63,379 nucleotides of DNA from a virus (taxonomy: Duplodnaviria > Caudoviricetes). Where the stretch lies: positions 1-63,379 of IMG/VR virus record IMGVR_UViG_3300036770_002271; one strand, 5' to 3'. The position numbers were made by a program, and so were the translations under genes. Positions 3,001 to 35,100 of this stretch are shown piece by piece; the stretch's first letter is position 1; each line of letters starts with the position of its first letter. The notes beneath the pieces are model-generated. The model saw nothing but the letters and a program-made list of their open reading frames with translations, made no database searches and had not been told where the DNA came from.

Positions 3001-3304
3001 TACCCTGTGTACCTTGTAATCCTTGTAGCCCTTGAACACCTTGTAAGCCCTGAGTACCTTGAGTACCTTGTACTCCTTGTAATCCCTGTAGACCCTGTGC
3101 ACCTTGTGTACCTTGAACACCTTGTGTTCCTTGTAATCCCTGTAGACCTTGAGTACCCTGTATTCCTTGTAAGCCCTGTGTACCTTGTACTCCTTGAACG
3201 CCCTGTACACCTTGTGTACCTTGAAGTCCTAAATCACCTTGTAGACCTTGTGTTCCTTGTGTACCTTGGATGCCTTGTAATCCTTGGATGCCTTGAAGTC
3301 CTTG
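1..3304 (-). repeat. 9-bp-period coding repeat (GGN-NNN-CAR; Gly-X-Gln), including a 117-bp tandem duplication at 1-117/118-234
   Basis: Plus strand shows continuous ccttg/ccctg 9-nt periodicity; the antisense ORF translation repeats with a 39-aa period at its start. Confidence 0.95.
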
Positions 3305-6300
3305 CAAATTACCTAAATCTGTAAGATACTGAGCACTACCAATGAAGTATTGAGCATATACATTACCTGCACCACCTACTTGTAATCCCTGAGTAGAAAA
3401 TACTCCTACATTACTCACACCCTGTACACTAATTGTTACATTACCATCAGCATTTGGTATAGTTACATTGCTTGTTCCATTACTAATGCCTGTGCCACTT
3501 GGTAACCCTGTTAAGAAAGCACCATTACCTAAGTAATAGTTAGCAGTGACATTTCCAGAGAATACTCCCTGTACTCCTTGTATTCCTTGAATGGCATAAA
3601 AGTTATTTGCCCATATTGTATTAGCAACTAATCCTGAATCTCCAGCATTTCTACCAACATAAACATTTCCCGTTGGATTTACATTTCCATTAGCATAAAC
3701 AGAGACAAGGTTTAAGTTACCTAAAGTTGTTCTAAATTCAAAATCAGTAGCAACTGTATTACTTGATGATATTGTAGCATTACTTGTTACACTAGCAATA
3801 ATAGTAGCACCTTCACGTCCTGTTGTCCCATTAAATGCTTGGAAGGTCATACTACCAATTCTATCTCCTGCTTGTACAGGTAATGCGCCGTCTCTATCCC
3901 CTCTACGTCTTTCAATATACCAAAACGCAGCGTTTGTAGCAGCATTTCCAAATACAATATTATTAATACCTGGTGTTGTTCCTGTCCAAGCACCTAGTGT
4001 CATTTGTAAACGTGAGTGTTGGTCAAAGCTGTATAAGTTTTGATTATTTGTAGAAGTATTATTCGCTGTTACATTACCATTTGGGTTACCAGTAACAATT
4101 TGAAAAGTGCCTGGCATCCATGGTGTCCAAGGCTGTCTAAATGCTGTAGTCGAGGCACTTGGAGCAGTTAATCTAACTTGACCTGCTAAGGCATAATAAT
4201 TGTTACCTGTGTAAACATAATGTCTTTGACCATATATTGTAGAAAAGCTTGTTACCGGAGTTGGGCTTTCAATAGTTCCATTTGCTTTTACATAATTTAC
4301 GTATAGAGGAGTAGAACCATAATCTGTTGTTTGGGTAGAAAAATTGTTTCCTATTGTAGCAGTATTAATTGTATTGCCATCACCATAAAACAGATATTGT
4401 GCTGCCTGACCTGTTCCTTGAACTTGTAAAGTATTAGCACTTAAACCACTAATTTGAACTGTATTACCAATTGTGATACTAGCACCATCAGGACTTGACA
4501 AACTAATATTATTACCGTCAGGACTACTAATTGTAGCATTACCTACATAAATTGTTGCGTTTGATAGATATAAATCTCTCCAACGGTTTGTAGCAGAACC
4601 TAAATCGTAAATGATGTCAGTATCAGGAATTAAACTTCCTGTCACATTTCCTGTAACCTTTAAGTTATTAACATTTAGGTTACTCCAAACATTAGACGAA
4701 GATCCCAAATTATATGTGAGATTGGCATCAGGTATTAAATTACTACTAATTCGTCCTGACACATTAAATTTACCATTTCCACCTACTACTACTGTATTAC
4801 TTGTATTATCAAAAATGAACTCACTGTAACCGGCTAACAGTCCGTTGTTATTATATTGTATTTGTGTGTTACTACCACCAATAGCAGGCAATGGGCCCTG
4901 AACACCTTGAGTTCCTTGTACACCTTGTAAGCCTTGAAGTCCTTGTAGGCCTTTATCTCCTGTTCTATCAAATGTAATAGTTAACAATTGGTCATTCGAT
5001 GGCGTAATACCACTTACATAACTTACAGTCAATTGTGACCAACCTACATTTGTTGATACAGCAGAAATAGCAAAGATGCTTGTTACATTACTATTATTAT
5101 CGTTTGCTAAAAACGTAATATAACCTTTAACTGTGCTGTCAGAGTTATCCCAAGTGTTAATCCAATTAGCAAAATTTATACCTGAAGCCCCTAAGTCATC
5201 AATAGCAATAGATGTAACACTTGATATTGTGCCATTATTAAATCTTACATAACCTGATCCAGGATCAACCATAGATGTGTTGGTACTAAAGTAATAAGGT
5301 ATACCACCTTTATCACCTTGAGCACCTTGTAAACCTTGAATACCCTGAGCAGCATAAGCACCATCAAGACCCTGTATGCCTTGAGTGCCTTGAATACCTT
5401 CACCTTGTATCCCTTGTGTGCCTTGTAGACCTTGTAATCCTAACCCTTGTGAACCTTGAAGTCCTTGTGTACCTTGTAAACCTTGGATACCCTGAGCAGC
5501 ATAAGCACCATCAAGCCCTTGTATACCTTGAGTACCTTGTAACCCATCTATACCTTGTATACCCTGTGTTCCTTGTATACCTAAGTCACCTTGTAATCCT
5601 TGTGTACCTTGTAATCCTTGTGTACCTTGTAATCCTTGTGTGCCTTGAATTCCTTGTAAACCTAGTGTTCCTTGAACACCCTGTAGCCCTATCGTGCCTT
5701 GTAGACCTTGCGTGCCTTGTAGACCTTGTGTTCCTTGTAGTCCTTGTGTGCCTTGTAGACCTAAATCACCCTGTAGACCCTGAACACCCTGTAGCCCCTG
5801 TGTTCCTTGTAGTCCTTGTGTTCCTTGTAGTCCTTGTGTGCCTTGTACACCCTGTAGCCCCTGTGTTCCTTGAAGTCCTTGTGTTCCTTGTACACCTTGT
5901 GTTCCTTGAAGTCCTTGTGTTCCTTGTACACCTAAATCACCTTGTAGACCTTGTGTGCCTTGAAGTCCTTGTGTCCCCTGAAGTCCTTGCGTACCTTGTA
6001 GACCCAAGACTCCTTGCGTTCCTTGTGGACCTTGTGTTCCTTGTAGTCCTTGCGTTCCCTGAAGTCCTTGAGTTCCTTGTATACCTAAATCACCCTGTAT
6101 ACCTTGTGTTCCTTGTAGTCCCTGTGTGCCTTGTAGTCCTTGAGTTCCTTGTATACCTAAATCACCCTGTATACCTTGTGTTCCTTGAAGACCTTGTGTT
6201 CCTTGTAGTCCTTGTGTGCCTTGTAGACCTAAATCACCCTGTATACCTTGTGTTCCTTGAAGTCCTTGTGTGCCTTGTAGTCCTTGTACACCTTGTGTCC

Positions 6301-7573
6301 CTTGTATACCTAAATCACCCTGTATACCTTGTGTCCCTTGAAGACCTTGTGTCCCTTGTAGTCCTTGTGTTCCCTGCGTACCTTGAATCCCCTGAACACC
6401 TTGCGATCCCTGCGTACCTTGTAGTCCTTGTGTACCTTGTAACCCTTGTGTTCCTTGTAGTCCTTGTGTACCCTGAACTCCTTGCGTACCTTGTACACCC
6501 TGAACTCCTTGTAGACCCTGTGTACCTTGTAGTCCTTGAATTCCTTGTAGACCCTGTGTACCTTGAACTCCTTGTAATCCTTGTGTGCCCTGTAGACCTT
6601 GAGTGCCTTGTAGACCTTGAACACCTTGTGTCCCTTGTAAACCTTGTACACCTTGTGTACCTTGAACACCTTGTACTCCAATAGCACCATCTAAGTTAAC
6701 TGTCCAACTAGAATATGTTCCTGAACCTTCAGTTTCTAAAACGTTTACAACTAATACACCTGTAGCTGGATCATAACTTACAACTCTACCATTCATATCA
6801 TTGGTAAAGTCATAAGCAATAACAACATCCTGATTTAAGCTATAAGCTAAATTGGTTGCTACAATTAATGTTTTGTTTCCTAAACTTATTGTAAGTGTAG
6901 AATTACTTGTTGTAATATAGGTATCACCTCTGATGCCTTGAGTACCTTGTGATCCTGCTGTCCCTTGTAAGCCTTGTATACCTTGTGCTGCATATTCACC
7001 AGCTAAACCTTGTAAACCTTGATTACCTTGTGTACCCTGAATACCCTGTACGCCTTGACCAGCGAATTGTCCTGCTATACCTTGTACACCTTGAAGTCCT
7101 TGTGAGCCTTGAAGTCCTTGTACACCTTGTAATCCCCTACTTCCTTGTATACCCTGTATACCCTGTAAACTACCATCTTGTGTCCATGTCAGATTACCAT
7201 TGCCATCTGTTGCCAAAAAGTAACCATTAGCTCCGCCACTAATATGTACATTGCTTACATCACCTAAATTAACATTTCCTGTTGTTGTTAAATTTAATGC
7301 TGTTAGTGTACCTGTAGTAGAGGTAAAGGTAAGGTTTGAACTTGCTCCAAATTGACCATTATTATTAAATTGAACTTGAGAATTTGCCCCTGCTGGTGTA
7401 GTTGTTAATGGTTGACCATTACTAAAATAATAATTATTACCATAGATATTATTAGCTGTTACATTACCTGATGTATTAACGTTTGTAACAACGTTTCCAT
7501 TAGCATCTACAACATCTACGGCTGGTATTCCAGCAGAATAACCACCTACACTATTAAACTTTTCGGCTGACAT
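2..7573 (-). CDS. Giant collagen-like virion fibre protein (>2524 aa, C-terminus beyond the left edge of the window)
   Basis: ATG at 7573-7571 ([15 protein letters not shown]...) with an AAGGGA RBS and a TATAAATA late promoter upstream. Start and window-edge codons are in the same frame and I found no stop in the parts I translated. Gly-X-Gln blocks at ~2-3304, ~4890-4960, ~5310-6690 and ~6930-7170 alternate with Asn/Thr/Gly-rich fibre domains. Probably missed by the ORF track because no stop lies in the window. Confidence 0.9.
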
Positions 7574-8852: not shown

Positions 8853-10049
8853 TCACTGAAACGTAAGGTTCTGCACGGCAATTTCACCAACGTAATCCGC
8901 CGCATTGCCAAACGAACTTGCAGTATTCGTAAGCTCAATGTAGCCATACCTGGTCATAAAGCTAACTACTGGTTCGAATGTAGTTGGATCTAGAACAACA
9001 CCGCTGCTCATCAATGGAATGTATGGGCAATAGAATGCTGCTGCATCTGTCTCACTTGAACCTTTGTAACCAACTAATACAGCCTGTGTATCAGGAGCAT
9101 AGCTGTCTACGAAAACACGCATTGCGCCATTCAATGTTCCTACAAACTTGGTATTTGTTGGAGCTTCGAATGTACCTTCTGTGGTACGTGCGAATGCTGA
9201 TGTTGTTGCGCTTTGTAGAACAGTTAAGCTTGCGCTTGATACAACTGCCCAGTTACCAGCACCACGACGTGTGCGTTGTGCGATTAGGTTAGCGACACGA
9301 TTGATTAGAACTGCTAGAGCAGCGTGTTCGTCACCAACGTATGTAGCTGTACCTGATACTGTAGCTTGGTTATATGTAAACTCTGTGCTTGCTAGTGTGC
9401 GTAGTGAAAGTAGAATTTCTTGGTCAATTTCAGCAGTAATTTCTTGTGCTAGAGCTGCCATGATTTCTGCTTCTACGTCGATACCATGCTGACTTTGTGC
9501 GTCTTGCGCGGCTTCGAATGTCCAACGTGCTTGTAGCTTACGTGATTTAGCTTCAACAGCTTGACGTAGAATTTGAACGCTGATTTGTTTACCACCGTTA
9601 CCTTCTAGTACCGCTGTGTTATTTGCTGTATAAGCATCTGTGCTTGTTGTGCTTGAAGCGACACGAGAATAAGCCTGAGCAATTTTGAATGGGCTCAATG
9701 CTTCTTCACCTGCTGTAACACTTGTTGCTGCTGCTGATGTATCAGTCAATGACTGAGCATAGCGAACACGTAGTGTATGAATTTGACCAACTGGTCCTGT
9801 CATTGGCTGAACACCAACTAATTCATTAGCAATAACAGTTGGCATCACACGACGGATTACTGGTAGAATCACACGGTTTAGTGTAGCGATGTTACCTGCT
9901 GTAGTTGTGCCTGCGCTACTTTCTTGTAGTAGTGATTTGCGAGTGTTTTCTAGAATAACACCCATTGTTGAACGACGAGTTCCTTTTAAGCCTTCTAGCA
10001 GGGCGTCTTTTGTCTCGTCCCAACGGCTTTCTAAGAGTACTTTTGACAT
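8853..10049 (-). CDS. gp23: Major capsid protein (T4 gp23-like)
   Basis: VGVQPMTGPVGQI, SRKLQARWTFEAAQD, EITAEIDQE, AFYCPYIPL and FEPVVSFMTRYG motifs; follows scaffold and protease. Confidence 0.96.
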   Translation of the reverse strand: MSKVLLESRWDETKDALLEGLKGTRRSTMGVILENTRKSLLQESSAGTTTAGNIATLNRVILPVIRRVMPTVIANELVGVQPMTGPVGQIHTLRVRYAQSLTDTSAAATSVTAGEEALSPFKIAQAYSRVASSTTSTDAYTANNTAVLEGNGGKQISVQILRQAVEAKSRKLQARWTFEAAQDAQSQHGIDVEAEIMAALAQEITAEIDQEILLSLRTLASTEFTYNQATVSGTATYVGDEHAALAVLINRVANLIAQRTRRGAGNWAVVSSASLTVLQSATTSAFARTTEGTFEAPTNTKFVGTLNGAMRVFVDSYAPDTQAVLVGYKGSSETDAAAFYCPYIPLMSSGVVLDPTTFEPVVSFMTRYGYIELTNTASSFGNAADYVGEIAVQNLTFQ

Positions 10050-13009: not shown

Positions 13010-14794
13010 TTATGCTGGTGCTGCTGCCGGTGCCGCTGGTGCTGGTGCTGGTGCTGGACTTCCCACAGGTGCTGTTCCTACAGGCCCTGCTACCTCTGGA
13101 CCAGCTTCTTCAGGAGGTGCTTCTAATTCTTCTCCAGTTTGTAAATCAGCTTCAATATCTCCACTGCTTACTCCAACACCACGAATATCAGTACCACTTG
13201 GAGTATCAACAGGTGCTTTATTATTTTCTTCCTGCCATAATTTTTCGTTTCTTGTAATTTCTTCCTCTGTTAATCCTAAAAATCTTTCTAAAGCAAAACG
13301 TTTACTCATATATGGAAATGCTTCCATTGTAGCAAATGTACTTACTCTTGCTGTATCTAATTCACTTTGACGATAAGCAGCAAAGTTTTGTGGTGGATTA
13401 AAAACTAAATTAAACAATCCACTATCAATATTCAAACCTCTCCAACGTAAGAACAATTTAAATTCTTCATCCAATTTCATTGCCAAATAACTTTGCAATC
13501 TTTCGCAATATTGATTAAAACGAAACTCTTGTATCATAGCTGTGCCAACACGACCATCACTTAATGGTGTGGTATTATCATCTGGGCCAGTTGGCAAATA
13601 ACTACTAGGAACACGCAAACCACGAGCTAAACGATTGTTAAAGTATTTTAAGTCATCAATCTCGCCTAAGTTTTGTCCACCTGGTAATACTTCTACACTA
13701 CTTCCACGACCTTCGGCAGTAACAGGGAAAAAATAATCTTCATTCATACTAAGTGGATTATATGTAGCATCTACAATACTTTGTCCACCATATAAACTTG
13801 GTATTCTACGTTGGTGTATTTCATTTTTTATACGTTCTACAAAAGCCATAGCCATGTGACTTGGCATATTACCAACATCAATTTTAAACATTCTACGTTC
13901 AGGCGCACGTTGAACACGATAAATTAATACAGCATCTTCTAATAATTCTTTTTGCTTGTATACTTTAAAAATGTTTTCCAATATACTTTGACCAAAAGGC
14001 CAAAATCTATCTAATCCTTCTGTTAAACTTAAATGAACAATATGTTTAGCATCAATTGCGCTTTCACTTTGTCCCAATGTAAATCTACTACCTGTTGTAT
14101 TATATGGCATAGCTGGAACGGTATACGGTGTATTTGTTCCACCTCCTGTACCACCTAATCCAGTTGCCGGGTTCGCAGCAAAGTCTGTATTAGTTTTTTG
14201 TGCTACGCTAAGATTTTGTAAGTTTATGTTAATATCTTTAAGAACATACTGTTCAGGTTTTTTACCTTCACTTTCATTCACAATAACTTTAATAACTTTG
14301 ACCATATCTACCCAATATAGTTTAAAGTTTTCAGGATCACGAACAAATACCTGATCTCCATATTTTACTACATTACGAAATATTTTAAAGATACGATTAT
14401 CAAATTCATTTAATTTACACCATTGCTGTAATTGAGTTTTTAATAGTTCTACTTCATGCGGAGTAGGATCGTCTTTAAACTCAAACGCAAATGGAGTTTT
14501 ATTGTGTTCATTACGTTGTGTAGAAAATTCTGAAATAATATCTAAGCAAGCATTAATTTCAGCATCAACATCCATCATTTCGTACTGATTATAACGTTCA
14601 ATACGATTTGGGTGCCCTGTATAAACTTCAGGCAAACGACTCATATAATTTTTATAACCAAACTCTGTGTTGTTATATCCACCAGTTGGCATACTATTTT
14701 GTCCAATTCCATTCCAAGCACCATTATTGCTATTAGCTCCACTGATTGGACTTGATACGCCACTACGGTTTAAAAATTTCTTTTTATAAGTCAT
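13010..14794 (-). CDS. gp20: Portal protein (gp20-like)
   Basis: LLEDAVLIYRVQRAPERRMFKIDVGNMP, EDYFFP, LPGGQNLGEIDD and LRVPSSYL motifs; CTAAATA at 14811-14817. Confidence 0.96.
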   Translation of the reverse strand: MTYKKKFLNRSGVSSPISGANSNNGAWNGIGQNSMPTGGYNNTEFGYKNYMSRLPEVYTGHPNRIERYNQYEMMDVDAEINACLDIISEFSTQRNEHNKTPFAFEFKDDPTPHEVELLKTQLQQWCKLNEFDNRIFKIFRNVVKYGDQVFVRDPENFKLYWVDMVKVIKVIVNESEGKKPEQYVLKDININLQNLSVAQKTNTDFAANPATGLGGTGGGTNTPYTVPAMPYNTTGSRFTLGQSESAIDAKHIVHLSLTEGLDRFWPFGQSILENIFKVYKQKELLEDAVLIYRVQRAPERRMFKIDVGNMPSHMAMAFVERIKNEIHQRRIPSLYGGQSIVDATYNPLSMNEDYFFPVTAEGRGSSVEVLPGGQNLGEIDDLKYFNNRLARGLRVPSSYLPTGPDDNTTPLSDGRVGTAMIQEFRFNQYCERLQSYLAMKLDEEFKLFLRWRGLNIDSGLFNLVFNPPQNFAAYRQSELDTARVSTFATMEAFPYMSKRFALERFLGLTEEEITRNEKLWQEENNKAPVDTPSGTDIRGVGVSSGDIEADLQTGEELEAPPEEAGPEVAGPVGTAPVGSPAPAPAPAAPAAAPA

Positions 14795-14818: not shown

Positions 14819-17575
14819 TTAAGTTCTCGCATACTTAACTAACTTATCCTGTAGTGACACTCCTGATTCTAATACAGTAATCATGGTATCTAATTTATCA
14901 CTTAGTTGTTCTTGTGATTTGATAAACATACTCATTAGATCACCCATTTCAGTATTTTTAGTCGAAGTTGCTGGTGATATTGCCTCAGGGAACACACTTT
15001 CTATTGGACTTTTGGTTACATTATCTTCAAGTTTACTTTTCAAATTTTCAACCATTTGATTGGTTAATACGTACTCATCATTTTTAAGTAATACTGGAAA
15101 ATCACCTAAGCTGCTTTTAAAGTATCCACCATTATGTGCGATTTCAACGTGAAAATGTCCACCTGTTGTTTTAGCTGTTTTATGAGCAAAGTATTCATCC
15201 AATACCTTATTAGCACCCATACCCATGAGTTGTTGTCTTATTTCTTCTGCCTCTCTAGCATCTTTAGGAGGCGGATTCATAGCAAAATCAAGAGCCTTTC
15301 CTATAGTGTGCTTACTTGTTTTTCTTTTTTCTTGGTGAAATTTATCGTTTAGTGAGGTAATTACAACACCAGGAAATGTTTCATTAATTTTATGAGCCAT
15401 AGCAATTAAGTTAGGATCAGCTTCTCCGCCACCTGTTCTTTCTTCACGTTTACCACCGAAATTTAGTCCTGCCAGCGGATCTCCTTCACGCTTTCTAACT
15501 TCAGCGCCCATATTTGCTATTCTTTCTTCTTTTGCTGCTCCTGCCATTGCCTGAACTCTAGATCCTGCTCCTTCAAGACCAACCGCACTTAATCCTTTAC
15601 CTAATAATGTTCCAATACCCTCTATACCTTTAGCAGCATAAATTTGAGCCTTATCAACCAAATCTGCTTTTTTCATTAGTTCGGCTTCTTTTTCAGCAAG
15701 TTTTGGATCTTTTTGTTTTTGTTGCTCTAGTGCCTTATTAGGGTCGGTCATTATTGCGCCTGCTGTAGCACCAAAAGTTTTACCGTAAGCTCCTGTTATT
15801 TCACCAAATTTATCTACAGCTTTTCCAAATTGATCTGAAGCATGTGACAAAGTTCCTGCTGAATTTTCATTTCTTATAGCATCTTCACGTTGACTTCTTA
15901 CCAAATCAACTTGTGTTATAGTTTGCTTATCTACAACTTCACGTTGTTGTTTTAGATAATCATCTAAACTTAAGCCCATTTTTTTGGCTTGTTCCGGGGC
16001 ATCTTTCAATCGTAAATAAAAATCGCTTGCTGTTCCAAAGCCCTCTGCCATAACACTTTTCACAGCATCAGCATTAAGTCTACCTACACTAGCAAATTGT
16101 TTTGCTTGATCTTTCATTTCTGTAGCTGCTAATACCATATTTTCTGCTACAGTTCCTTGCCCTTTACTAATTCGATCCAATAATTGTGGAGCACTTTGAA
16201 ATGTTTTTACTGCTTCAGGACTTGTCATTGCTTCACCAGCAGCAAAATATTTTGCTACTCCAGCTGCCATTCCTTTAGCACCAGCAGCATACAAAGATTC
16301 AGCATTTTTTAATGCTCTTTCTAATTTTTCTTTCTCAACAGCGTCTTGTTCATCTAACATAGCAGCACGTAATTCTTCAATTGCTAGTATTTGATTACGT
16401 GCCTCTTCTTGTTCTTTTCTTGTAGCTCCTGTTAATTCAGCAAGCTTATCCATTTCAATGATATAATTAAAAGCTGATTTGTTTAACTTTTCTTGGTCAG
16501 TAATTCTTGCTTTACCTAAACGTGCCTCAGTTGTTAAGAAAGAAATCATGCTTTCACGCTGATCAGCAGCAGTGATACCCATTGTTTCTAATGTTCTACC
16601 CAAATCACTTTTAATTAACGTGCCCGCATTTTTTACAAAACTTTTTAACCCTTCACTTGTACTAGCACCTAATAATTTTAATTCTTTACCTGCTCCTTTG
16701 ACAAGACCTGTGAACTCACTTACTTCAGCCATCGTCAGACCAAGTTCATTTAATTGTCTTTGTAGTTCTGTCATACCACCAGCACCAATCATGCTGGCTT
16801 TGCCTAATTCATTAAATCCTTGGAATAATTTATCCTTAAGTCCTGCTACTTGTGTGGCAAATTCTAGTGCTGTGTCACTTGCTTTAGCATATGCCTTAGC
16901 CCCTACTCCTAAAATAGCAGTTAAGGCTCCAAATGCCAATCCAACTGGGCCACCCATCACTGCCATAACAGCACCCAAGCCTATCGCAAAATTTCCAAGT
17001 TGATCAATTACACTATTAAATGCCTTTCCTACTTGCTCTGATTGTTTTGCTACAAGTTGTTGACCACGTTCTCCTGCTAATAAACTTTTTGTGTAATTTA
17101 CCTGAGCATCATATGCTGCCTTTAAAACCGTGATACCACCATCTACTATAACTCTCAATCCTTGTAATGCTACAGTTGCACCAATACCACCTCCAGCTAA
17201 CTGTGTTAACCTGTCTTGCATAACACTTAAGGCACCGTCAACACCTGAGGACGAATTCATTATCCCCCTAGCTATGTCACCCTGTTTCTTGGCATTGTCT
17301 AATACTACCTTAGTAGCATCTTCTTCTGCTTTCGTGCGCTTTTCTGTCGCATCGAGTGCCTTTTTTTCTGCTTCAGTAGATTTTTGTGTTAATTCTTTGT
17401 CATCTTGACCAAGTTTGTTAACTTGCTTTGTTAATTTGCCAAAGGCTTCACCTAATTTATCACTTTGAGTTTTAGTTGAGGTAAAACTACTACCAAGACT
17501 ACTACTAGTGTTGGTTAACTCACTGAATCGTTGATTTAATTCATTAATAGTATTGGGGTCTAAATTTTCAGCCAT
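14819..17575 (-). CDS. Tape measure protein with C-terminal M15-type peptidase motif
   Basis: 918-aa Ala/Gly/Lys-rich helical protein with a hydrophobic segment; KHTIGKALDF...GGHFHVE metal motif; adjacent to the chaperone-like gp26/gp51 locus. Confidence 0.75.
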   Translation of the reverse strand: MAENLDPNTINELNQRFSELTNTSSSLGSSFTSTKTQSDKLGEAFGKLTKQVNKLGQDDKELTQKSTEAEKKALDATEKRTKAEEDATKVVLDNAKKQGDIARGIMNSSSGVDGALSVMQDRLTQLAGGGIGATVALQGLRVIVDGGITVLKAAYDAQVNYTKSLLAGERGQQLVAKQSEQVGKAFNSVIDQLGNFAIGLGAVMAVMGGPVGLAFGALTAILGVGAKAYAKASDTALEFATQVAGLKDKLFQGFNELGKASMIGAGGMTELQRQLNELGLTMAEVSEFTGLVKGAGKELKLLGASTSEGLKSFVKNAGTLIKSDLGRTLETMGITAADQRESMISFLTTEARLGKARITDQEKLNKSAFNYIIEMDKLAELTGATRKEQEEARNQILAIEELRAAMLDEQDAVEKEKLERALKNAESLYAAGAKGMAAGVAKYFAAGEAMTSPEAVKTFQSAPQLLDRISKGQGTVAENMVLAATEMKDQAKQFASVGRLNADAVKSVMAEGFGTASDFYLRLKDAPEQAKKMGLSLDDYLKQQREVVDKQTITQVDLVRSQREDAIRNENSAGTLSHASDQFGKAVDKFGEITGAYGKTFGATAGAIMTDPNKALEQQKQKDPKLAEKEAELMKKADLVDKAQIYAAKGIEGIGTLLGKGLSAVGLEGAGSRVQAMAGAAKEERIANMGAEVRKREGDPLAGLNFGGKREERTGGGEADPNLIAMAHKINETFPGVVITSLNDKFHQEKRKTSKHTIGKALDFAMNPPPKDAREAEEIRQQLMGMGANKVLDEYFAHKTAKTTGGHFHVEIAHNGGYFKSSLGDFPVLLKNDEYVLTNQMVENLKSKLEDNVTKSPIESVFPEAISPATSTKNTEMGDLMSMFIKSQEQLSDKLDTMITVLESGVSLQDKLVKYART

Positions 17576-17638: not shown

Positions 17639-18460
17639 ATGATTAACCCATTAAAGCAATATTTTCGTCGTGCTTCCATTACCGTAAAACTACCAAGCCA
17701 AGGTAAATTCTATCCACCAGATAGTATTGATATGCCAGTGACTGGAGAATTGCCAGTTTATCCAATGACTGCTGTTGATGAGATTACAAGTAAAACACCG
17801 GATATGTTATTTAATGGATCCGCTATTGTAGACATTATAAAAAGCTGTGTTCCTAATATTAAAGATCCATGGCAAATTCCTAGTATTGATATTGACCCAC
17901 TAATGATAGCAATACGTTCGGCTACATTAGGTAATGAAATGGAAATTGAAAGTCAATGCCCAAGTTGTAATAATATAGGAAAGTATGGGATTAATTTAGT
18001 TAGATTATTAGGTTCATTGGAGCCTGGAAATTACGAACAACCACTACAGATTGACGAACTAAAGTTTAAATTTAAACCCTTAAAATATAAAACAGTTAAT
18101 GATACCAATATGAAACAATTTGATATACAAATTGAAATTAATCGTATAAGTGAAATTACTGATGAACAAGAAAAAATGAAGAAGTCAAGTGAAACTATGA
18201 AAAAGTTGAATATGACAACTTTCCAATTGGTAGCAGAAAATATTGAATACATTCAAACTCCAACCGAAGTTATTAATAATAGAGATTTTATCTATGAATA
18301 CGTCACCAATGTAGAAAAGAAAACATTTGATAAAATACGTGACCATGGAATAAATTTAAGAAAACATAGCGAAATTAAACCAATGAAAATTAAATGTGTA
18401 AACTGTAGTCATGAATATGAACAAGGTTTATCATTGAACGTTACTGATTTTTTCGGGTAA
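17639..18460 (+). CDS. gp26: Baseplate hub assembly/tail chaperone protein (gp26-like)
   Basis: LPSQGKFY, PMTAVDE, DIDPLMIAIRSAT.G, CPSC and CVNC motifs and C-terminal DFF; GGAG RBS. Confidence 0.8.
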   Translation: MINPLKQYFRRASITVKLPSQGKFYPPDSIDMPVTGELPVYPMTAVDEITSKTPDMLFNGSAIVDIIKSCVPNIKDPWQIPSIDIDPLMIAIRSATLGNEMEIESQCPSCNNIGKYGINLVRLLGSLEPGNYEQPLQIDELKFKFKPLKYKTVNDTNMKQFDIQIEINRISEITDEQEKMKKSSETMKKLNMTTFQLVAENIEYIQTPTEVINNRDFIYEYVTNVEKKTFDKIRDHGINLRKHSEIKPMKIKCVNCSHEYEQGLSLNVTDFFG

Positions 18461-18498
18461 AGCTTCTGAATAGTAAGCCACAAGATATTCAGAAGCTT
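18448..18498 (+). other. Programmed -1 ribosomal frameshift signal
   Basis: In-frame slippery heptamer T TTT TTC (18448-18454), 5-nt spacer, then a perfect 13-bp stem (18460-18472/18486-18498). Confidence 0.8.
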
Positions 18499-18684
18499 AT
18501 AGATGGATTTGAAAATGAGGCAAAATCCATAAAGGAAAATGCTATAAAATTATGTTGGTATATGAGAGGTGGTATTAGTTATACTGATATTCTTAATATG
18601 AGTCCTTTTGAAAGAGAAAGTATAACCAAACTCATTGAATCTAATTTAGAAACAACTAAAAAGACGGGATTGCCTTACTTTTAA
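18448..18684 (+). CDS. gp51-like frame (78 codons), probably expressed as a -1 frameshift extension of the gp26-like protein
   Basis: Open from TTT 18448 to TAA 18682-18684 (FFRVKLLNSKPQDIQKLIDG...LCWYMRGGISYTDILNMSPFERE...TGLPYF); no ATG in the first 38 codons; not in the ORF track. Confidence 0.75.
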   Translation, partial: FFRVKLLNSKPQDIQKLIDGFENEAKSIKENAIKLCWYMRGGISYTDILNMSPFERESITKLIESNLETTKKTGLPYF

Positions 18685-19081
18685 AGACGAACTTCGTTCG
18701 TCTAAGTCCTTCACTACGTTCGGACTTAACTTTACAAGGAGATTACTTGCCGCTAGGATGTCCATGGTAGTGCTATTCAGCACTACCAAGTTGACTTGCC
18801 ATGCCCGTCAATCCATGTTGTCTTTGCCCATACATACAGCCTTACTGCTTATGTATCCTACCGGTTGCCCTGTAAAGTTTATGGCCTGTAGTGAAGCTAA
18901 TGTCAGTTATGACACCTCTTCGGCAACGCACATCCTATAACATCAAGACAAAATAGTTATAGGCTTGTTGAGTGTTCGCTTTGTCGATTGCACTCTCGGT
19001 ATATTGAGGATATCCCCCTACTCCAGTTCCGTCGGCACAGCACTATCTGTACTTCCTCAAGGAGGGTCGAAGACTTCGACC
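18685..19081 (-). ncRNA. Candidate large structured non-coding RNA of unrecognised family
   Basis: About 400-nt intergenic stretch, more GC-rich than its flanks, with more than 10 helices and several loop-to-distal pairings; two helices extend through G-U pairs only on the minus strand. Confidence 0.7.
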
Positions 19082-19091
19082 AAACAAATTT

Positions 19092-19649
19092 TTAAATGTT
19101 AATACTTAGTATGTTTTGTTTTGATTCTGACTTGGTGTCAATAGTTGCTGAATATTTTTTAAGAAGGTCTTTGTTGTTTTTGAAAAAGTCATCAAATTCA
19201 AGTATGAGCCAATCACCATATTTTGTTGTTGAATAATACATAAAGTTATCTGTGATCCAAGTAAGACCACATTGTACTGCTACAAAACGACCTTTGCGAT
19301 TAAACTTCATAAACAATATGTTTAAGTCATTACTTTCGCTTACAGTCATTAACTGATCAATCCAATTATTTAGTAATTTACAATCACCTAAAAGTACTAG
19401 GTGAAATGGAAAGTCAGCATAACTTTTGCACTCTGCGTTAAAAAGAGGGAAACTTTGTCCAGGCACAATGTCTCCCTTAAAAGATCGAACCTGTCCTTCG
19501 TGTAATAATTCTTTACGGACTTGGTTCTTACCTCCCACATAAGCACCACTACCTGGGGCTCTAATAAAACTCTCATTATAAGTTTCAGTTAAAAACTTCG
19601 CAACTTCTCGCTCAAAACTAGAGCCTTTTTTCTTCTGTGGACTAGGCAT
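19092..19649 (-). CDS. Hjc-type PD-(D/E)XK nuclease, putative Holliday junction resolvase
   Basis: KGSSFEREVA, SGA, GDI and ECK motifs; directly downstream of gp46. Confidence 0.8.
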   Translation of the reverse strand: MPSPQKKKGSSFEREVAKFLTETYNESFIRAPGSGAYVGGKNQVRKELLHEGQVRSFKGDIVPGQSFPLFNAECKSYADFPFHLVLLGDCKLLNNWIDQLMTVSESNDLNILFMKFNRKGRFVAVQCGLTWITDNFMYYSTTKYGDWLILEFDDFFKNNKDLLKKYSATIDTKSESKQNILSINI

Positions 19650-19684
19650 AGTATTATATATTAAAATAAAATGTCATCAAAAAA

Positions 19685-21439
19685 TTATTCTACATCCACA
19701 GTTGTATTGTATGATGTAAAACCGTTCTCTTTTATGACTTTTAAAACATTTGGTACACGCCCAGCAAGTTCCTCACGGTGACTTACTAACCATATACTTT
19801 TGTGTCTGCGACGGCTCATGTCTTTTAATATAGCAATACTATTTTCAACGCCCATTGTATCTAACCCACTGTCTATTAATTCATCAATAAACAATGTGTT
19901 TACTGGAGCGTATAGGTTCTCCCACACATCTCTAAACGCAAAACTTAATCCTAAAATTAATCTATTACGCTCACCCCTGCTCAAATTATCAAAATCAAGC
20001 TCACGTCCTAATTCTGTAATTTCAACCTGTAAGTCATTCTTAAAAACAACTTGATGAGGTAATCCAATCTTATCTAGGTAATGCGTCAATCTAGCATTTA
20101 AATAAGATAAATTTTGATCAATAATCTTTTTACGAACAAAACTATCTTTGCTAGTTAATAACTCTAACAAAAATTTCTGATGTTCTGAAACTTTTGTCAG
20201 TTGGTTAATTTTGTCGAAATTAACTTCTTGTAACGCCTGACTTTCCATCTCGGATATTTGTTCTGAGTATGGATCTGATTCTTTAATCTTGTTATCAATC
20301 GTTTTACTAATGTTTTCAATTTGACTACTATGTTTAACTGCCTCCGCTTCTGTGTCATAATGTGTGATAGGCTTATCCATTACAACAACTGGATTATCAA
20401 CTAATGAATTTAGCTGATGTTCATACTCTTTTAATAATTTTTTACACTCTGTAAGTTGTTTAGTCTTGTCTTTTAATACACTACTATGTTGTTTGTCATG
20501 TAATTCATGTCCACAAGCATAACACTTATGATCTTTTAATGACTTAACTTCTTTATCTAAAGTTTCACGGTCTTTGTCTTCTTTAGAAATATCTTTTCGT
20601 AGTTGATTTACTTTGTGATCGTAAGCAGACTTAAGATTAACTTGTTTAGTATATTCTAACAAATCTTTATGTGCCTGTAATTCACTTTCAATATCTATCT
20701 CAGATAAGTTTGATAACTCAGTAGCCAATTCTAATAAATCTTGTTCATGTTTATTTTGCCAAAGTTTTTGCCTACGTTTCAAACTTTCAATTTGTTCTTT
20801 GACACGCTTATTAGCTTCATCAACAGCCTTTACACGAAATTCTTCTTGCTGGATATCATCCTTTGTCTGTCTTAACAAATCTTTAATAATATCTGCTTTC
20901 TCACTTAATAATGTTATACCAAGTAATTGTTCAATAATAGCACGTTGCTCATTTGACTTTAGTGCTAAGAAAGGTTCGTTATATGTGTTCAATGCTACGA
21001 TATGTCTAAACATATCACTAGTCATGGAAATAGTTTTTTCTATAAACGATTGTGTTTCTTTATTTTCACCTTGGGCATCGTCTGTATTTTTCTGTAGCTT
21101 ATTATCAATATAAAATTTAAGTATGTTAGGTTTACGACCACGTTCAATTTTATAGTCGGTGCCATTTACATTAAACTCAAGCGTAACTAACATACCCTTG
21201 CTATTAGTACGATTTACAAGATTATCTTTTCTAATATTGTTGATTGGTACACCAAACAATGCGTAACATAACCCTTGAATTAGTGTGGTTTTACCTGTTC
21301 CATTTCTAGCACCATCACCACCTAAGTCTAAGTTCTCACCTAGAATAAGTGTAAGTTCTTTTCTATCAAAGTTTACTGCTTGTGTTACCTGTCCTATCGA
21401 TAAAAAATTCCGTAATGTAATATTTTTAAGAGTTATCAT
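19685..21439 (-). CDS. gp46: Recombination ATPase gp46 (Rad50/SbcC-like)
   Basis: Walker A NGTGKTT, coiled coil with CYAC zinc hook, signature LSRGE, Walker B LFIDE and SH motif. Confidence 0.95.
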   Translation of the reverse strand: MITLKNITLRNFLSIGQVTQAVNFDRKELTLILGENLDLGGDGARNGTGKTTLIQGLCYALFGVPINNIRKDNLVNRTNSKGMLVTLEFNVNGTDYKIERGRKPNILKFYIDNKLQKNTDDAQGENKETQSFIEKTISMTSDMFRHIVALNTYNEPFLALKSNEQRAIIEQLLGITLLSEKADIIKDLLRQTKDDIQQEEFRVKAVDEANKRVKEQIESLKRRQKLWQNKHEQDLLELATELSNLSEIDIESELQAHKDLLEYTKQVNLKSAYDHKVNQLRKDISKEDKDRETLDKEVKSLKDHKCYACGHELHDKQHSSVLKDKTKQLTECKKLLKEYEHQLNSLVDNPVVVMDKPITHYDTEAEAVKHSSQIENISKTIDNKIKESDPYSEQISEMESQALQEVNFDKINQLTKVSEHQKFLLELLTSKDSFVRKKIIDQNLSYLNARLTHYLDKIGLPHQVVFKNDLQVEITELGRELDFDNLSRGERNRLILGLSFAFRDVWENLYAPVNTLFIDELIDSGLDTMGVENSIAILKDMSRRRHKSIWLVSHREELAGRVPNVLKVIKENGFTSYNTTVDVE

Positions 21440-22452
21440 AGATTGTTATAAATGTCCAGTAGTAATTTTTTATCAAAGCCTTTACTTTCAATCGCATTGA
21501 TTTGATCAATAATAATTTGATCAACGCTTTCAAACTTAAGGCCTTCAAAATTACCTTGGTCGGTATTTTCAAGTTTCATTGGTATTAATGTCATTTCACG
21601 CAATTTGTGTTCAGGAATAAATGTTTCACGCAAGAAATTTGCCTCCTCATAACTTATATCAATGTCAAGGTGTACCCTAACATGGCTATCAATTAATAGC
21701 AAGCCCTCTGGGTTTTCTAAGATATCGCTTAATTTATGAACACGATATACTGGTTGACGTGGCCAACTATGAAAAGTTGGTTCTTCTCCCCATTCTAATA
21801 TCATCATACCTCTAGCATCATCACCAGCATCAGCATAATTATGTGGGAAGGCATTGCCTATATACCAAATATTTTTACGTGCTTGACGTTTATGAAAATG
21901 TCCACTAAAAGCTTTTTCAATATTTGAAAAATCATCTATTTTTACTGAGTTATCATGCTCTGGCATCATAACTTGAGAATTCATATAAAAATTACCAAGT
22001 TCAAAATGACCGAATACATATTTTGATTTTATTTTTTTTATTTTTTTTATTTCATCACCTATTAGCCATGGGCACAATGTAACATCACCTTCAGTATATA
22101 TCTCATTAATAACATGAACATTTGGTAAGTAATTTGCCCATTCAACACTACTTACATCACGCTTCTCTCTAAAATAAATGTCATGATTACCTGTTATAAA
22201 ATAAACTTTACTAAATGATTTGTTAAGTAATTCCAAACAACGCATTGAATAATGCAATGTATGTATATTGATGCTTGCTCTATGATTATGCCAATCTCCG
22301 CAAATTATTGCAGTATCACAATGGTATTCTTTTGCCTTATCAACGAACCAAATTACAAAATTTAAACAATCTTCGTTATGTTGAATACTATTACTTTTTA
22401 AACCAACATGAAGATCAGTCATTACTGCCGTTTTTTTAAATAAATTATTCAT
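21436..22452 (-). CDS. gp47: Recombination nuclease gp47 (Mre11/SbcD-like)
   Basis: DLH, GDW, GNHD and GHFH metallophosphoesterase motifs; start placed at ATG 22452 (MNNLFKK) because a sigma70 promoter overlaps the longer TTG start. Confidence 0.93.
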   Translation of the reverse strand: MNNLFKKTAVMTDLHVGLKSNSIQHNEDCLNFVIWFVDKAKEYHCDTAIICGDWHNHRASINIHTLHYSMRCLELLNKSFSKVYFITGNHDIYFREKRDVSSVEWANYLPNVHVINEIYTEGDVTLCPWLIGDEIKKIKKIKSKYVFGHFELGNFYMNSQVMMPEHDNSVKIDDFSNIEKAFSGHFHKRQARKNIWYIGNAFPHNYADAGDDARGMMILEWGEEPTFHSWPRQPVYRVHKLSDILENPEGLLLIDSHVRVHLDIDISYEEANFLRETFIPEHKLREMTLIPMKLENTDQGNFEGLKFESVDQIIIDQINAIESKGFDKKLLLDIYNNL

Positions 22453-22459
22453 AGTAATC

Positions 22460-22488
22460 AGTATAAATGTTTTTTTGTTGTATGTCAA
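22460..22488 (-). promoter_or_regulatory. Sigma70 early promoter for gp47-gp46-resolvase
   Basis: TTGACA (22488-22483)-N17-TATACT (22465-22460), 7 nt before ATG 22452. Confidence 0.85.
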
Positions 22489-32158: not shown

Positions 32159-35100
32159 ATGGCTACAAGTTCAAGACAATCAGCACTATTTGGGGTAAAT
32201 GACTGGAAAGCTATTTATCAAACTTTCCGTGAAGCCGATTTTCGTAGTTACGATTATGAAACACTACGCAAAAGTTTCATTGACTATCTACGCTTGTATT
32301 ATCCCGAAACTTTTAATGATTACATAGAAAGTAGTGAATTTATCGCCTTGCTTGATGTTATGGCTTTTATGGGCCAAGGTCTAGCATTTCGTAATGACTT
32401 AAATGCACGTGAAAACTTTATTGATACTGCTGAACGCCGTGATAGCGTCATCAAATTAGCAAACTTAGTGAGCTATACTCCAAAGCGTAATCTTTGTGCT
32501 GAAGGGTATTTAAAGGTTACAAGCATTAGAACTACACAGAACATAACTGATTTAAACGGATTAAATCTTAGCAATCTTACAATATTATGGAATGACCCAG
32601 CAAACCCAAATTGGCAAGAACAATTTAATACAATTATTAATGCTAGTTTAGTAAACACACAACGTATAGGTAGACCAGGTAATGTAGCTGATTTACTTGG
32701 TATTATTACAGCAGAATATGCTATAAACATACCAGCAGATAACTTACCAATAGCTCCATTTACTAGTACAGTGGATGGCATTACAATGAATTTTGAACTT
32801 GTAAGTGCTACAAGCTTAGATGAAGATTATATCTATGAAATTCCTCCTGCTCCAAGCGGACGTTTTAATATACTTTATCGTAATGACAAATTAGGATTTG
32901 GTAGTCCTGAAACAGGATTCTTTTTCTATTTCAAACAAGGTATATTACAAACGTTTGATTTTAATTTTGAGCAACAGATTGCTAACCAATTGATTAATAT
33001 TGATATAGAAGGTATAAACAATACTGATACATGGTTATATCAACTTAATGTTAACAATGGAAATCGTTTGTTATGGAAAAAGGTTGAAAATGTATATGCT
33101 AGTGCCTACTTACAAACTGAAAATAGTGACCGTAGAATATTCAGTGTAGATTCACGTTTTAATGACCAAGTAAGCTATGTGTTTGGTGATGGCGTATTTA
33201 GTGAAATTCCAGTTGGAACATTTCGTGCCTATATTAGAGCAGGTAATGCGTTAACGTACACAATTGATCCAAGCGAAATGCAGGGTGTCACAGTAGCATT
33301 TAGTTATATCAGTCGTTTAGGTAAAACAGAAACATTAACATTTACTTTAGAATTGCCAATAGCAAATTCTACAGCACAAGCACGAGAGTCATTGGCACAA
33401 ATTAAACAACGTGCCCCAACCAGATATTATACACAAAATCGTATGGTTAATGGTGAGGATTACAATAACTTTCCATATACTTTGTACAGTTCAATCATAA
33501 AAAGCAAGGCAATTAATCGTGCTAGTATTGGTGTAAGTAAGAATTTAGATTTATTAGATCCAACAGGAAAATATAGTTCTATTAATAGTTATGGTAGTGA
33601 TGGCGCTTTATACCAAGATGATACAAATGGATTTGAAAACATAACCATTAATAATACCACTGATATTAGGGCATTTTTAACTAAGTTGAGTAACATTTTA
33701 GGAACAACTGCGCCAGTACAATATTATGTACAAAATTATGACAGATACAATATAAATGTTTCAAGTGGAGACGGAATTACATATTGGCAAACAAGTACAG
33801 TAGATGCTAATAGTGAAACAGGCTATTTTTATAAAGTAGTTGGTAGCACTAATGTTCCTGTACCAACTGGTACATTTAATAACTATAACATGAAATATGT
33901 TACAACAGGAGCTATTTGTAAGTTTACAGCTCCAGCTGGTTTTTATTTTGATAACAATAACAGATTAGTAGCAGGTATTCCTGGATCAGGTGATACAACT
34001 TATATTTGGTCTACTGTTCTAAATGTAATTGGTGATGGTTATAATTTCGGCGAAGGTCAATTTTTAAACGGTACAGGTCCTATCACATTAAATGGGTATG
34101 TACCATCAGGTTGTATAATCTCCACTGTCATTCCTGTTTTTGATAATATTTTTCCACTTACACTAATTGAAGAAATTCAGGCAAGAATGGAATTACAACA
34201 GGATTTCACATTAGTTTACAACAATAGTTTATTGATTAACCAAAATCGTTGGTCAATAGAATCATTTACAAATACAAATTATTTTGTTAAATTTGAAAGT
34301 ACAGGAACTAATAATTATACAATTACATATCGTTCACTTAATTATTTGTTTGGAAGTGTAAGTGATATAAGATTTGCCTATAGTGTTAATGAACTTGTAT
34401 ATGATCCATTTTCAGGTAAAATTATACAAGACTTTGTAAAGATATTAGGTATTAACAGTCAACCAAATAGCACATATCCAATTGGTCAAGACATTAGTGT
34501 TAATGTAATTGGTCAAACTGTTGAAGACGATGGCTATGTTAATGATTTTGAAATTGAAGTATCATCAACTGATGTAAACAATAATCAAATTATTGTTAAT
34601 CCTGACTTCTTTACTGAAATAACAGGGTATGTTACAGGAGCAAGTAACATAGGCATTTATACATTCTTTGAACTTATCGAAGATGCTATTAATTTAACTA
34701 GATTACAAATTATTCCAACAAGTAGTGTGGTATTTACATTTCCTACAAAAACTCAAATTGAAGTTGTAAAATATGATTATCCTTTGGGACAATTATTTTA
34801 TGCCTATAGTGAAAATGTTTTCTACAAAACATTACAAGATTCAACCAGCACTACTCCATTATATACAGTAACAATACAACCACAATATAGCATAAAACCA
34901 GGTCGTCAAGGATTAAGTTTTCAGTACAGACATAATTCAAATAACACGACAAGAATTGATCCAGCTACAACAAATATAATTGATTTATATGTTGTAACTC
35001 AGGCATATTATACAAGTTATACAAATTATATTCAAGATGTAACTAATACTATTCCCGAACCTGACATGCCAACAATTAATGAATTGCAAAGTGCTTATGG

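What the first reader, a model, noticed from the sequence alone, without database searches (positions are those of the whole stretch)
18685..19081. ~400-nt multi-pseudoknot non-coding RNA candidate directly downstream of a PD-(D/E)XK nuclease
Seen: this is the only large intergenic gap in a densely packed window, and nearly all of it can pair. Local stems: 18685-92/18696-703, 18703-09/18722-28, 18765-74/18779-88, 18791-95/18807-11, 18830-36/18850-56, 18901-05/18910-14, 18934-41/18956-63, 18970-74/18991-95, 19004-10/19054-60, 19065-71/19075-81. Long-range helix: 18728-39/18868-79. Pseudoknot-type pairings: loop CTTCACTAC 18709-17 with GTAGTGAAG 18888-96; loop AAGACAA 18945-51 with TTGTCTT 18818-24; TTGCCG 18747-52 with CGGCAA 18921-26; CTCC 19021-24 with GGAG 19061-64. 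TAGGAT(GT) at 18754 has two alternative partners (18855-60 and 18930-37). G-U pairs in 18728-39/18868-79 and 19035-40/19047-52 favour the minus strand, co-oriented with the nuclease and starting ~10 nt after its stop. I do not recognise tRNA, tmRNA, RNase P or group I/II hallmarks. Inference: an uncharacterised large phage RNA. It could be a nuclease or recombination partner, a ribozyme, a multimerising RNA using loop-loop contacts (compare phi29 pRNA, ROOL, GOLLD), or a structured replication origin.
Basis: partly seen in the sequence, partly recalled or inferred. Interest (0 to 1): 0.88.

Follow-up and report, generated by a model that had tools for sequence, protein, structure and literature searches.

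The report
New structured RNA gene in jumbo phages
The gap holds a real, strongly conserved, roughly 400-base folded non-coding RNA found in a clade of uncultured T4-like jumbo phages; it matches no catalogued RNA family and its job is unknown.

Summary
The gap 18685-19091 is non-coding and encodes a conserved structured RNA on the minus strand, co-oriented with the resolvase-like nuclease gene. Homologous sequence follows the nuclease gene in 80 of 80 related viral loci. A motif scan found at least 120 viral contigs and none in 185,579 prokaryote genomes. On 117 distinct sequences, 85.9% of cells pair, against 75.3% when shuffled and 35-46% when slid, and 68 of 90 pairs change on both sides. 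G-U outnumbers A-C by 269 to 39, which fixes the strand. The long-range helix and three alternative pairings are not conserved. No Rfam 15 family matches. In a sister clade the same slot holds different RNAs. One contains the Rfam motif Polynucleobacter-1, which also sits in an integrase-rich contig without the nuclease. Only the two 3' hairpins are shared with the window's RNA. I read it as an autonomous, probably trans-acting RNA gene in a variable slot. It is unlikely to be a dedicated nuclease partner. Function and transcription are not shown.

The parts
18685..19091 (-). Whole conserved non-coding RNA region. RNA index 1 is window 19091 and index 407 is 18685. This is the shortest form seen among 122 distinct gaps.
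19065..19081 (-). H1, the 5' hairpin, starting 10 nt after the nuclease stop. Its sequence varies while the stem is kept.
   Evidence: helix 1 (6 of 6 pairs change on both sides, 69.6% paired in a poor alignment)
19021..19064 (-). H2/H3, a long irregular hairpin. CUCC pairs with GGAG, with a near-invariant internal loop, a GGA bulge and a variable tip that covaries.
   Evidence: helices 3-5
19006..19018 (-). H4, a variable hairpin.
   Evidence: covarying columns 84-88 with 97-101
18859..19001 (-). Central four-way junction. It is closed by H5 (19001-18997 with 18863-18859) and holds H6 (18995-18970), H7 (18968-18930) and H8 (18927-18922 with 18869-18864). H8 encloses the variable hairpin H9 (18921-18893) and the invariant ACUACA (18892-18887).
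   Evidence: covariance model R1 (149.5 bits, the single hit in the window)
18945..18951 (-). Pseudoknot PK-A, 5' strand, in the H7 loop. It pairs with 18818-18824.
   Evidence: helix 10 (6 of 7 pairs change on both sides); (G-test 77-125 against a 99.9th percentile of 53)
18818..18824 (-). Pseudoknot PK-A, 3' strand.
18886..18887 (-). Tertiary pairs 18953:18886 (five pair types, 116 of 116 paired) and 18952:18887 (invariant U:A). They tie the H7 loop to the strand after ACUACA.
   Evidence: helix 1
18858..18877 (-). Junction pairs 18877:18858 (invariant C:G) and 18876:18859 (four pair types, 117 of 117 paired).
   Evidence: helix 3
18830..18856 (-). H10, a hairpin with many compensatory changes.
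   Evidence: 100-116 of 117 paired per pair, up to 6 pair types. It is misaligned for the window row in A1 (helix 12).
18765..18788 (-). H11, a 10-bp hairpin that is nearly invariant in sequence.
   Evidence: helix 13, 96% paired
18728..18746 (-). Variable A/U-rich linker, up to about 100 nt in relatives.
18704..18727 (-). H12, a hairpin read by eye as stem, tandem G-A pairs, two Watson-Crick pairs and a GNA triloop. This part is shared with the sister-clade RNAs.
   Evidence: (motif occurs once in the window)
18685..18703 (-). H13, the terminal 8-bp hairpin with a GAA loop. It has no U tract. It is shared with the sister-clade RNAs.
   Evidence: helix 17 (98.4% paired, 8 of 8 pairs change on both sides)
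19092..19649 (-). PDDEXK_15 (Holliday-junction-resolvase-like) gene directly upstream. A sigma-70-like promoter match lies at 19680-19653.
17639..18684 (+). Convergent gp26-like baseplate gene with a -1 frame extension. The slippery site T_TTT_TTC is at 18448-18454.

Best explanation
The gap encodes a free-standing structured non-coding RNA of about 350-400 nt, read from the minus strand.

What is shown:
- The RNA has a conserved fold: a 5' hairpin domain, a four-way junction, a 7-bp pseudoknot, two further covarying tertiary contacts, a sequence-invariant hairpin, an A/U-rich linker and two terminal hairpins.
- The strand is the minus strand.
- It is restricted to phages.
- It is fixed in single copy directly after the resolvase-like gene in one clade of uncultured T4-like jumbo phages.

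What is inferred:
- It is made early, as the tail of the SbcD/SbcC/resolvase transcript or from a start near that gene's end.
- It ends at hairpins H12-H13.
- It acts in trans as a compact folded particle that binds a protein or a nucleic acid, as a scaffold, decoy or catalyst. Many invariant bases sit in junctions and loops, which points to such a role.
- It is one of several interchangeable RNA genes that occupy a variable slot at this convergent gene junction. It is unlikely to be a dedicated cofactor of the neighbouring nuclease.
For: Conservation and synteny. blastn finds the gap sequence in 80 of 80 loci fetched with the nuclease. Nuclease, then gap, then convergent gene is kept in 78 of 78 loci (the window's own included) that have both flanks; 3 of 81 are cut. 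The same order holds in 100 of 120 motif-found loci, and the other 20 are cut by locus ends.

Fold. See for the covariation figures.

Strand. G-U 269 against A-C 39 in helices.

Not coding. The longest open frame has a median of 72 aa, against 66 aa when shuffled, and column variability shows no 3-base period.

Phage-only. 0 matches in genome contigs.

Autonomy. Five long gaps carry an inserted gene between the RNA and the baseplate gene, never between the nuclease and the RNA. In the sister clade, model R1 hits 12 of 78 loci. At least 39 of the other 66 keep a 385-602 nt gap in the same synteny, filled with other sequence families of 35, 10, 7 and fewer members. The largest family has covarying helices of its own. 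Its 5' part scores 112 bits for Rfam Polynucleobacter-1. That RNA recurs at 92.4 bits on an integrase-bearing contig.

Shared parts. The type-1 profile matches the sister loci only over H12-H13, with E 2.5e-4 to 2.8e-3 in 5 loci. The H12 motif occurs once in the 63-kb window.

Promoters. A sigma-70-like promoter match lies before the nuclease gene. By my reading, late-type TAAATA boxes precede many structural genes but not the RNA.
Against: Transcription is not shown. Metatranscriptome contigs from two studies (X19, X20) touch both the RNA and the nuclease gene at depth 2-6, carry no strand information and may include DNA. The 10- to 20-fold higher depth over 18770-19098 in X17 and X18 comes from libraries flagged as probably DNA, and could arise from conserved sequence of many strains collapsing into one contig.

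The 5' and 3' ends are unknown.

No partner, substrate or phenotype is known, so 'trans-acting' rests only on the pattern of conservation.

Keeping the position while the sequence turns over also fits a locus-bound cis role.

No phylogeny-aware covariation test such as R-scape was run. The shuffle control ignores relatedness. The slid control is the fairer one, and it also supports the fold.
Confidence: 0.55

Rival explanations
1. Cis-acting 3' end element. The fold would protect the early recombination-operon mRNA from 3' exonucleases, and would stop or insulate transcription where early and late units converge.
For: The element sits at the 3' end of the operon at a convergent junction. It ends in two covarying hairpins. 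The position is kept while the sequence turns over in the sister clade, and only the terminal hairpins are shared.
Against: A four-way junction, a pseudoknot, tertiary pairs and dozens of invariant unpaired bases are far more than a 3' stabiliser needs. No terminator-like site with a U tract was found. The H12 motif is not used at other junctions in the window. The sister RNA also occurs in a different gene context.
Confidence: 0.15
2. Dedicated RNA partner of the adjacent resolvase-like nuclease or of the SbcCD-like complex, acting as guide, regulator or scaffold.
For: The RNA is adjacent to and co-oriented with the nuclease in every complete type-1 locus. Insertions fall only on the far side.
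Against: Nuclease homologues in three cultured jumbo phages have no downstream gap and no R1 match in the whole records. Sister-clade nucleases of 56-100% identity to one another are followed by unrelated RNAs. One such RNA sits beside integrases with no ORF of 100 aa or more matching this family.
Confidence: 0.1
3. A ribozyme. It could be self-processing, releasing itself from the operon transcript, or it could act on another RNA.
For: The size, the pseudoknotted core and the invariant junction bases resemble those of large catalytic RNAs. H1 begins 10 nt after the stop codon. Different RNA families occupy one genomic slot. From recall, that pattern is seen for interchangeable self-cleaving ribozyme classes.
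Against: No match, even a weak one, to any ribozyme family in Rfam 15. No cleavage data exist. No read pile-ups marking ends were reported (table 6: none, and only contigs were laid).
Confidence: 0.1
4. Replication-origin or primer RNA. The structured transcript, followed by the A/U-rich stretch, would form an R-loop that primes DNA synthesis.
For: The element neighbours recombination genes, and an A/U-rich variable linker follows the core. From recall, T4 origins use R-loops. This was not checked here.
Against: There is no direct evidence. GC skew follows gene orientation only. The strand-specific G-U pattern and the tertiary pairs argue for a folded RNA, with no sign of a DNA unwinding element.
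Confidence: 0.05

Closest known systems
Polynucleobacter-1 RNA motif (Rfam RF01718; Weinberg et al. 2010, PMC2864571; only its Table 1 row was seen)
   Same: In a sister clade of the same phage group it occupies the same slot, after the nuclease gene and before the convergent gp26-like gene. It lies on the same strand and forms part of a non-coding region of about 440-480 nt. That region ends in the same kind of tandem-G-A hairpin plus terminal hairpin as H12-H13 here. It comes from freshwater samples and its function is unknown.
   Different: The window's RNA gives no Polynucleobacter-1 match even at E up to 10 (L069). The type-1 profile does not align to the sister loci outside H12-H13. The core architectures differ.
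ROOL and GOLLD large ornate RNAs (Nature 2025, PMC12286853; search listing and start of abstract only)
   Same: They are large, intricately folded non-coding RNAs of unknown function. From recall, they are also associated with phages.
   Different: No Rfam match to either. This RNA is smaller, at about 400 nt. Oligomer formation was not tested. The genomic context differs: it sits after a resolvase-like gene in T4-like jumbo phages.
Candidate structured RNAs predicted from IMG/VR (Fremin et al. 2023, PMC10690425; passages seen)
   Same: The data source is the same and the approach is comparative. This RNA may be among their more than 10,000 candidates.
   Different: The passages seen mention candidates upstream of resolvase or RusA genes, not downstream. 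The supplementary tables that list the motifs were closed, so overlap could not be checked.
Intrinsic terminators and 3'-UTR stabilising hairpins
   Same: H12-H13 sit at the 3' end of an operon and covary the way terminator stems do.
   Different: No U tract was found. About 350 nt of conserved complex fold lies upstream of them.

Membership tests
Any Rfam 15 family (includes GOLLD, ROOL, RNase P, tmRNA, group I and II introns, riboswitches) | Covariance-model score at or above the family's gathering score | tested here: not met
   0 matches in the whole window. With E up to 10 there is only noise: the best are GA-cis at 18.8 bits against 34.7 for a truncated match, and RT-7 at 16.2 bits against 116.8. 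A diverged homologue, L069, also gives nothing.
Polynucleobacter-1 RNA | RF01718 model score of at least 37 bits | tested here: not met
   The window gives no match at E up to 10. As positive controls, L232 scores 112 bits and L310 scores 92.4 bits.
Polynucleobacter-1-containing long RNA of the sister clade ('type 2') | Same locus, same strand and shared 3' hairpin module | tested here: met
   Synteny is shown. nhmmer matches type-1 profile positions of about 399-472 in 5 loci at E 2.5e-4 to 2.8e-3.
Polynucleobacter-1-containing long RNA of the sister clade ('type 2') | Homologous core (sequence or model similarity outside the 3' hairpins) | tested here: not met
   R1 gives no hit in 66 of 78 sister loci. 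nhmmer aligns nothing outside H12-H13.
tRNA / tmRNA | ARAGORN detection | tested here: not met
   0 genes in the window.
Structured non-coding RNA (generic) | Base pairs kept by compensatory changes, above controls | tested here: met
   85.9% paired against 75.3% shuffled and 35-46% slid; covariation score 0.334 against 0.148 shuffled and at most 0.123 slid; 20 of 30 pairs are compensatory.
Protein-coding gene | Conserved open frame and 3-base periodicity of variation | tested here: not met
   open frames are no longer than in shuffles, the best frame differs among sequences, and mean entropy by phase is 0.814, 0.805 and 0.820.
Riboswitch or 5' leader | A co-oriented gene directly downstream | tested here: not met
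   The next gene is convergent in 78 of 78 loci with both flanks.
Intrinsic terminator | G+C-rich hairpin followed by a U tract | tested here: not met
   0 terminator-like sites in 18300-19900.
RNA-only homo-oligomers (ROOL/GOLLD-like behaviour) | Self-assembly into defined multimers | not testable with these tools
   This needs native gels, SEC-MALS or cryo-EM.

The most novel reading that the evidence does not exclude
The RNA would be the founding member of a new class of large functional RNA specific to jumbo phages. It could be a ribozyme, or a self-assembling or decoy particle used in host takeover or counter-defence. On this reading it belongs to a wider set of interchangeable 'cassette' RNAs, Polynucleobacter-1 among them. 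These cassettes share a 3' hairpin module and move between phages and integrase-bearing elements.
Probability: 0.2. Interest if true: 0.9.

Novelty: new member of a known kind. Interest (0 to 1): 0.72.

Why it matters
Few natural RNAs of 300 nt or more with complex, covariation-supported folds still lack a function. Past examples have turned out to be ribozymes, ribonucleoproteins or RNA-only assemblies.

This RNA is fixed in one clade of environmental jumbo phages. The diversity available already defines much of its fold, so it is ready for chemical probing, cryo-EM and activity assays.

The work also gives the 2010 Polynucleobacter-1 motif a concrete phage context. It suggests that the motif is only the 5' part of a longer RNA. 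It also points to a genomic slot where related phages swap different RNA genes, which offers a way to find more of them.

Tried and rejected
- Known families: Rfam at gathering and at permissive thresholds on the window and on a diverged homologue gave nothing. ARAGORN found nothing. A weak truncated GA-cis match (18.8 bits against 34.7) did not appear when the flanks were included, so I dropped it.
- Cultured phages: blastn of the region against 50,697 phage records found no match. R1 against the whole records of Salicola phage SCTP-2, Sinorhizobium phage Phosso and Pseudomonas phage PA5oct found nothing (best E 0.26).
- PK-B (18709-17 with 18888-96): the best helix averages 5.92 bp against 5.13 bp shuffled, and its CUUC part is taken by the covarying H9 stem. 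I leave it as unproven.
- GGCA/GGCA duplex (18800-18797 with 18751-18748): only the two central pairs hold, in 92 and 87 of 117 sequences. Unresolved.
- Identity covariation between 18804 and 18753 (G/G 61, U/U 18, C/C 18): unexplained.
- Anti-Shine-Dalgarno mimicry by the CCUCCUU stretch: rejected, because variants change it with compensating changes in the partner strand.
- An anticodon-like loop on H11: rejected, because the loop varies among homologues.
- Read laying: no usable evidence on expression, ends or strand. Parts without cover are not interpreted.
- Literature: searches for this RNA found nothing specific. The supplements of Fremin 2023 and Weinberg 2010 were closed and may bear on priority.

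Full report
**Setting.** The window is a 63-kb fragment of a viral record, with completeness estimated at 18%. PHROGs and Pfam place it in the structural and recombination region of a T4-like myovirus. It holds a major head protein (8853-10049), a portal (13010-14794), a baseplate wedge (32159-35527), a Rad50-like protein (19685-21439) and an Mre11-like protein (21436-22488). Related contigs reach 364 kb, so these are jumbo phages.

The gap 18685-19091 lies between two convergent genes. One is the minus-strand PDDEXK_15 gene at 19092-19649 (E 2e-24). Cultured-phage records annotate its homologues as Holliday junction resolvase or D14-like. The other is a plus-strand gp26-like baseplate gene whose -1 frame extension ends at 18684.

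**Conservation.**
- The nuclease protein retrieved 195 relatives in IMG/VR, of which 80 loci were kept. blastn finds the gap sequence directly after the nuclease gene in 80 of 80.
- In 78 of 78 loci with both flanks (the window's own included), the order is nuclease, then a gap of 407-1233 nt, then the convergent baseplate gene. Three of the 81 are cut.
It matched none of the 32 million contigs of 185,579 prokaryote species.
- Of those 120 loci, 100 show both neighbours. The other 20 end too close to the motif.
- Pooled, there are 122 distinct gap sequences, and the window has the shortest. Identity to the window ranges from 58% to 93%, with a median of 67%.

**Fold.** I aligned the 117 distinct gaps shorter than 700 nt and left out the five longer ones. 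On the tool's alignment A1, my 90-pair model pairs in 85.9% of 10,194 cells.

| Measure | Observed | Shuffled | Partner slid 1-3 columns |
|---|---|---|---|
| Cells paired | 85.9% | 75.3% (0 of 500 reach observed) | 35-46% |
| Covariation score | 0.334 | 0.148 | at most 0.123 |

In addition, 68 of the 90 pairs change on both sides.

The best helices pair in 96-100% of cells: H2/H3, H5, H6, H7, H8, H11 and H13. H10 looks poor in A1 (35.9%) only because the window's row is shifted there. In my L-INS-i alignment its pairs hold in 100-116 of 117 sequences, with up to six pair types. RNAalifold on 52 sequences of the central domain, filtered to under 90% identity, gives the same junction, with 20 of 30 pairs compensatory.

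An unbiased G-test over 125,751 column pairs puts these helices at the top. It also picks out the pseudoknot between the H7 loop and the strand after H10, with scores of 77-125 against a 99.9th percentile of 53.

Two further contacts covary:
- 18953:18886, with five pair types and 116 of 116 paired.
- 18876:18859, with four pair types and 117 of 117 paired.

Each has an invariant neighbouring pair.

G-U pairs outnumber A-C 269 to 39 in the helices, so the RNA is on the minus strand.

- Seven of ten local stems, the pseudoknot 18945-51/18818-24 and the CTCC/GGAG helix hold up. The CTCC/GGAG helix is nested, so it is not a pseudoknot.
- The 12-bp long-range helix is peculiar to the window.
- Stem 19004-10/19054-60, the TTGCCG/CGGCAA pairing and both partners for TAGGAT are not kept.
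- Pairing 18709-17/18888-96 is at best partial and competes with the covarying H9 stem.

**Known families.** Rfam 15 gives nothing at gathering thresholds, and only noise at E up to 10 for the window and for a diverged homologue. ARAGORN finds nothing. The phage collection has no DNA match. Literature searches found no description.

**Which neighbour matters?** In the five long gaps, the extra DNA is a gene lying between the RNA and the baseplate gene. It encodes either a protein of 244-248 aa or one of 165-166 aa. By eye these resemble an SGNH hydrolase and a GIY-YIG endonuclease, but I did not test that. The insertion is never between the nuclease and the RNA.

Even so, the nuclease does not need the RNA. 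Homologues in three cultured jumbo phages are followed at once by another gene. A covariance model of the central domain (R1, 154 positions) finds nothing in their whole genomes.

**Walking outwards.** I used more distant nuclease sequences as queries and reached a sister clade of 78 loci.
- R1 hits 12 of the 78.
- At least 39 of the other 66 keep a 385-602 nt gap in the same synteny.
- The gap sequences there are different, falling into families of 35, 10, 7 and fewer members.
- The type-1 profile matches them only over the two 3' hairpins.
- The largest family has covarying helices of its own.
- Its 5' 136 nt are the Rfam motif Polynucleobacter-1 at 112 bits. Table 1 of Weinberg et al. 2010 lists that motif as from Burkholderiales and fresh water.
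- That motif, followed by similar downstream elements and the same terminal hairpins by my reading, also occurs on a 6.5-kb contig binned to a Haliscomenobacter MAG. There it lies among integrase genes, and no ORF of 100 aa or more matches this nuclease family.

**What it most likely is.** I read it as an autonomous RNA gene sitting in a variable slot at a convergent junction, where related phages carry different RNAs that share a 3' hairpin module. The many invariant junction and loop bases, the pseudoknot and the tertiary pairs argue for a compact three-dimensional fold that works as a folded particle. The sigma-70-like promoter match before the nuclease gene, and the lack of a late-type box before the RNA, suggest early expression with the recombination operon (my reading).

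Transcription itself is not shown. Only contigs could be laid, and they give no strand, no ends and no clean separation from DNA. The mechanism is inferred. The rivals are a cis-acting 3' element, a nuclease partner, a ribozyme and an origin RNA. They are weighed above.

**Verdict.** This is a real and well-supported new RNA family of unknown function. It is related by position and by its 3' module, but not by its core, to the uncharacterised Polynucleobacter-1 RNA.

Noticed in passing
window 18448-18684 (frame overlap at 18448-18460): The gp26-like baseplate gene (17639-18460) continues in the -1 frame for 78 codons after a T_TTT_TTC slippery heptamer. The extension peptide is conserved at about 50-70% identity. 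A canonical X_XXY_YYZ heptamer sits at the overlap in 77 of 78 loci, and it is TTTTTTC in 70 of them. This looks like a programmed -1 frameshift in a baseplate hub gene.
   Followed up: partly
L232 2017-2459; L310 about 4600-5125 (minus strand): The Rfam motif Polynucleobacter-1 (141 positions) appears to be only the 5' part of a conserved non-coding RNA of about 440-500 nt. The rest includes a GGAGGUACCGGACAACCGCCUCC-type hairpin, a helix flanked by GAUGAA repeats and the shared terminal hairpins. The longer RNA is seen in phages after the resolvase-like gene and, in one MAG contig, beside integrase genes.
   Followed up: partly
L275-L290 group, L236/L244-L248 group and others (sister-clade loci): At least two further sequence families fill the same slot after the nuclease: 10 loci at GC 0.38 and 7 loci at GC 0.45. 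L275, L286 and L244 gave no Rfam match at E up to 1. I did not examine them for structure or for small genes.
   Followed up: no
window 35529-54671: A single open reading frame of 6380 codons lies among baseplate and tail genes. I did not analyse it.
   Followed up: no
window 3002-7130: Long arrays with 9- and 18-base periodicity (CCTTG-type units) run across 3002-3308, 4895-4961 and 5369-7130. A stretch poor in ORFs lies at 3325-5289, so the RNA gap is not the only low-coding stretch in the window.
   Followed up: partly
L030, L037, L176 (about 247 aa); L135, L188 (about 165 aa): Extra genes are inserted between the RNA and the baseplate gene in five loci. They start MRIYFNGDSHT... or MTIYLY.KTHNITGLKYLGKT.... 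By eye these look like an SGNH-type hydrolase and a GIY-YIG homing endonuclease. I did not test this.
   Followed up: no
3' ends of the longer gaps, e.g. L013, L069 (after H13): Many homologues with gaps of 480-680 nt carry an additional conserved element containing TAAATGAATAG after H13. In some it appears to form a further hairpin. The window lacks it.
   Followed up: no
window, upstream of structural genes (e.g. 7667, 14819-17575, 17639, 32159, 55512): A TAAATA-type box about 10-30 nt upstream of many structural genes resembles T4 late promoters (recalled). I read this by eye and did not test it statistically.
   Followed up: no
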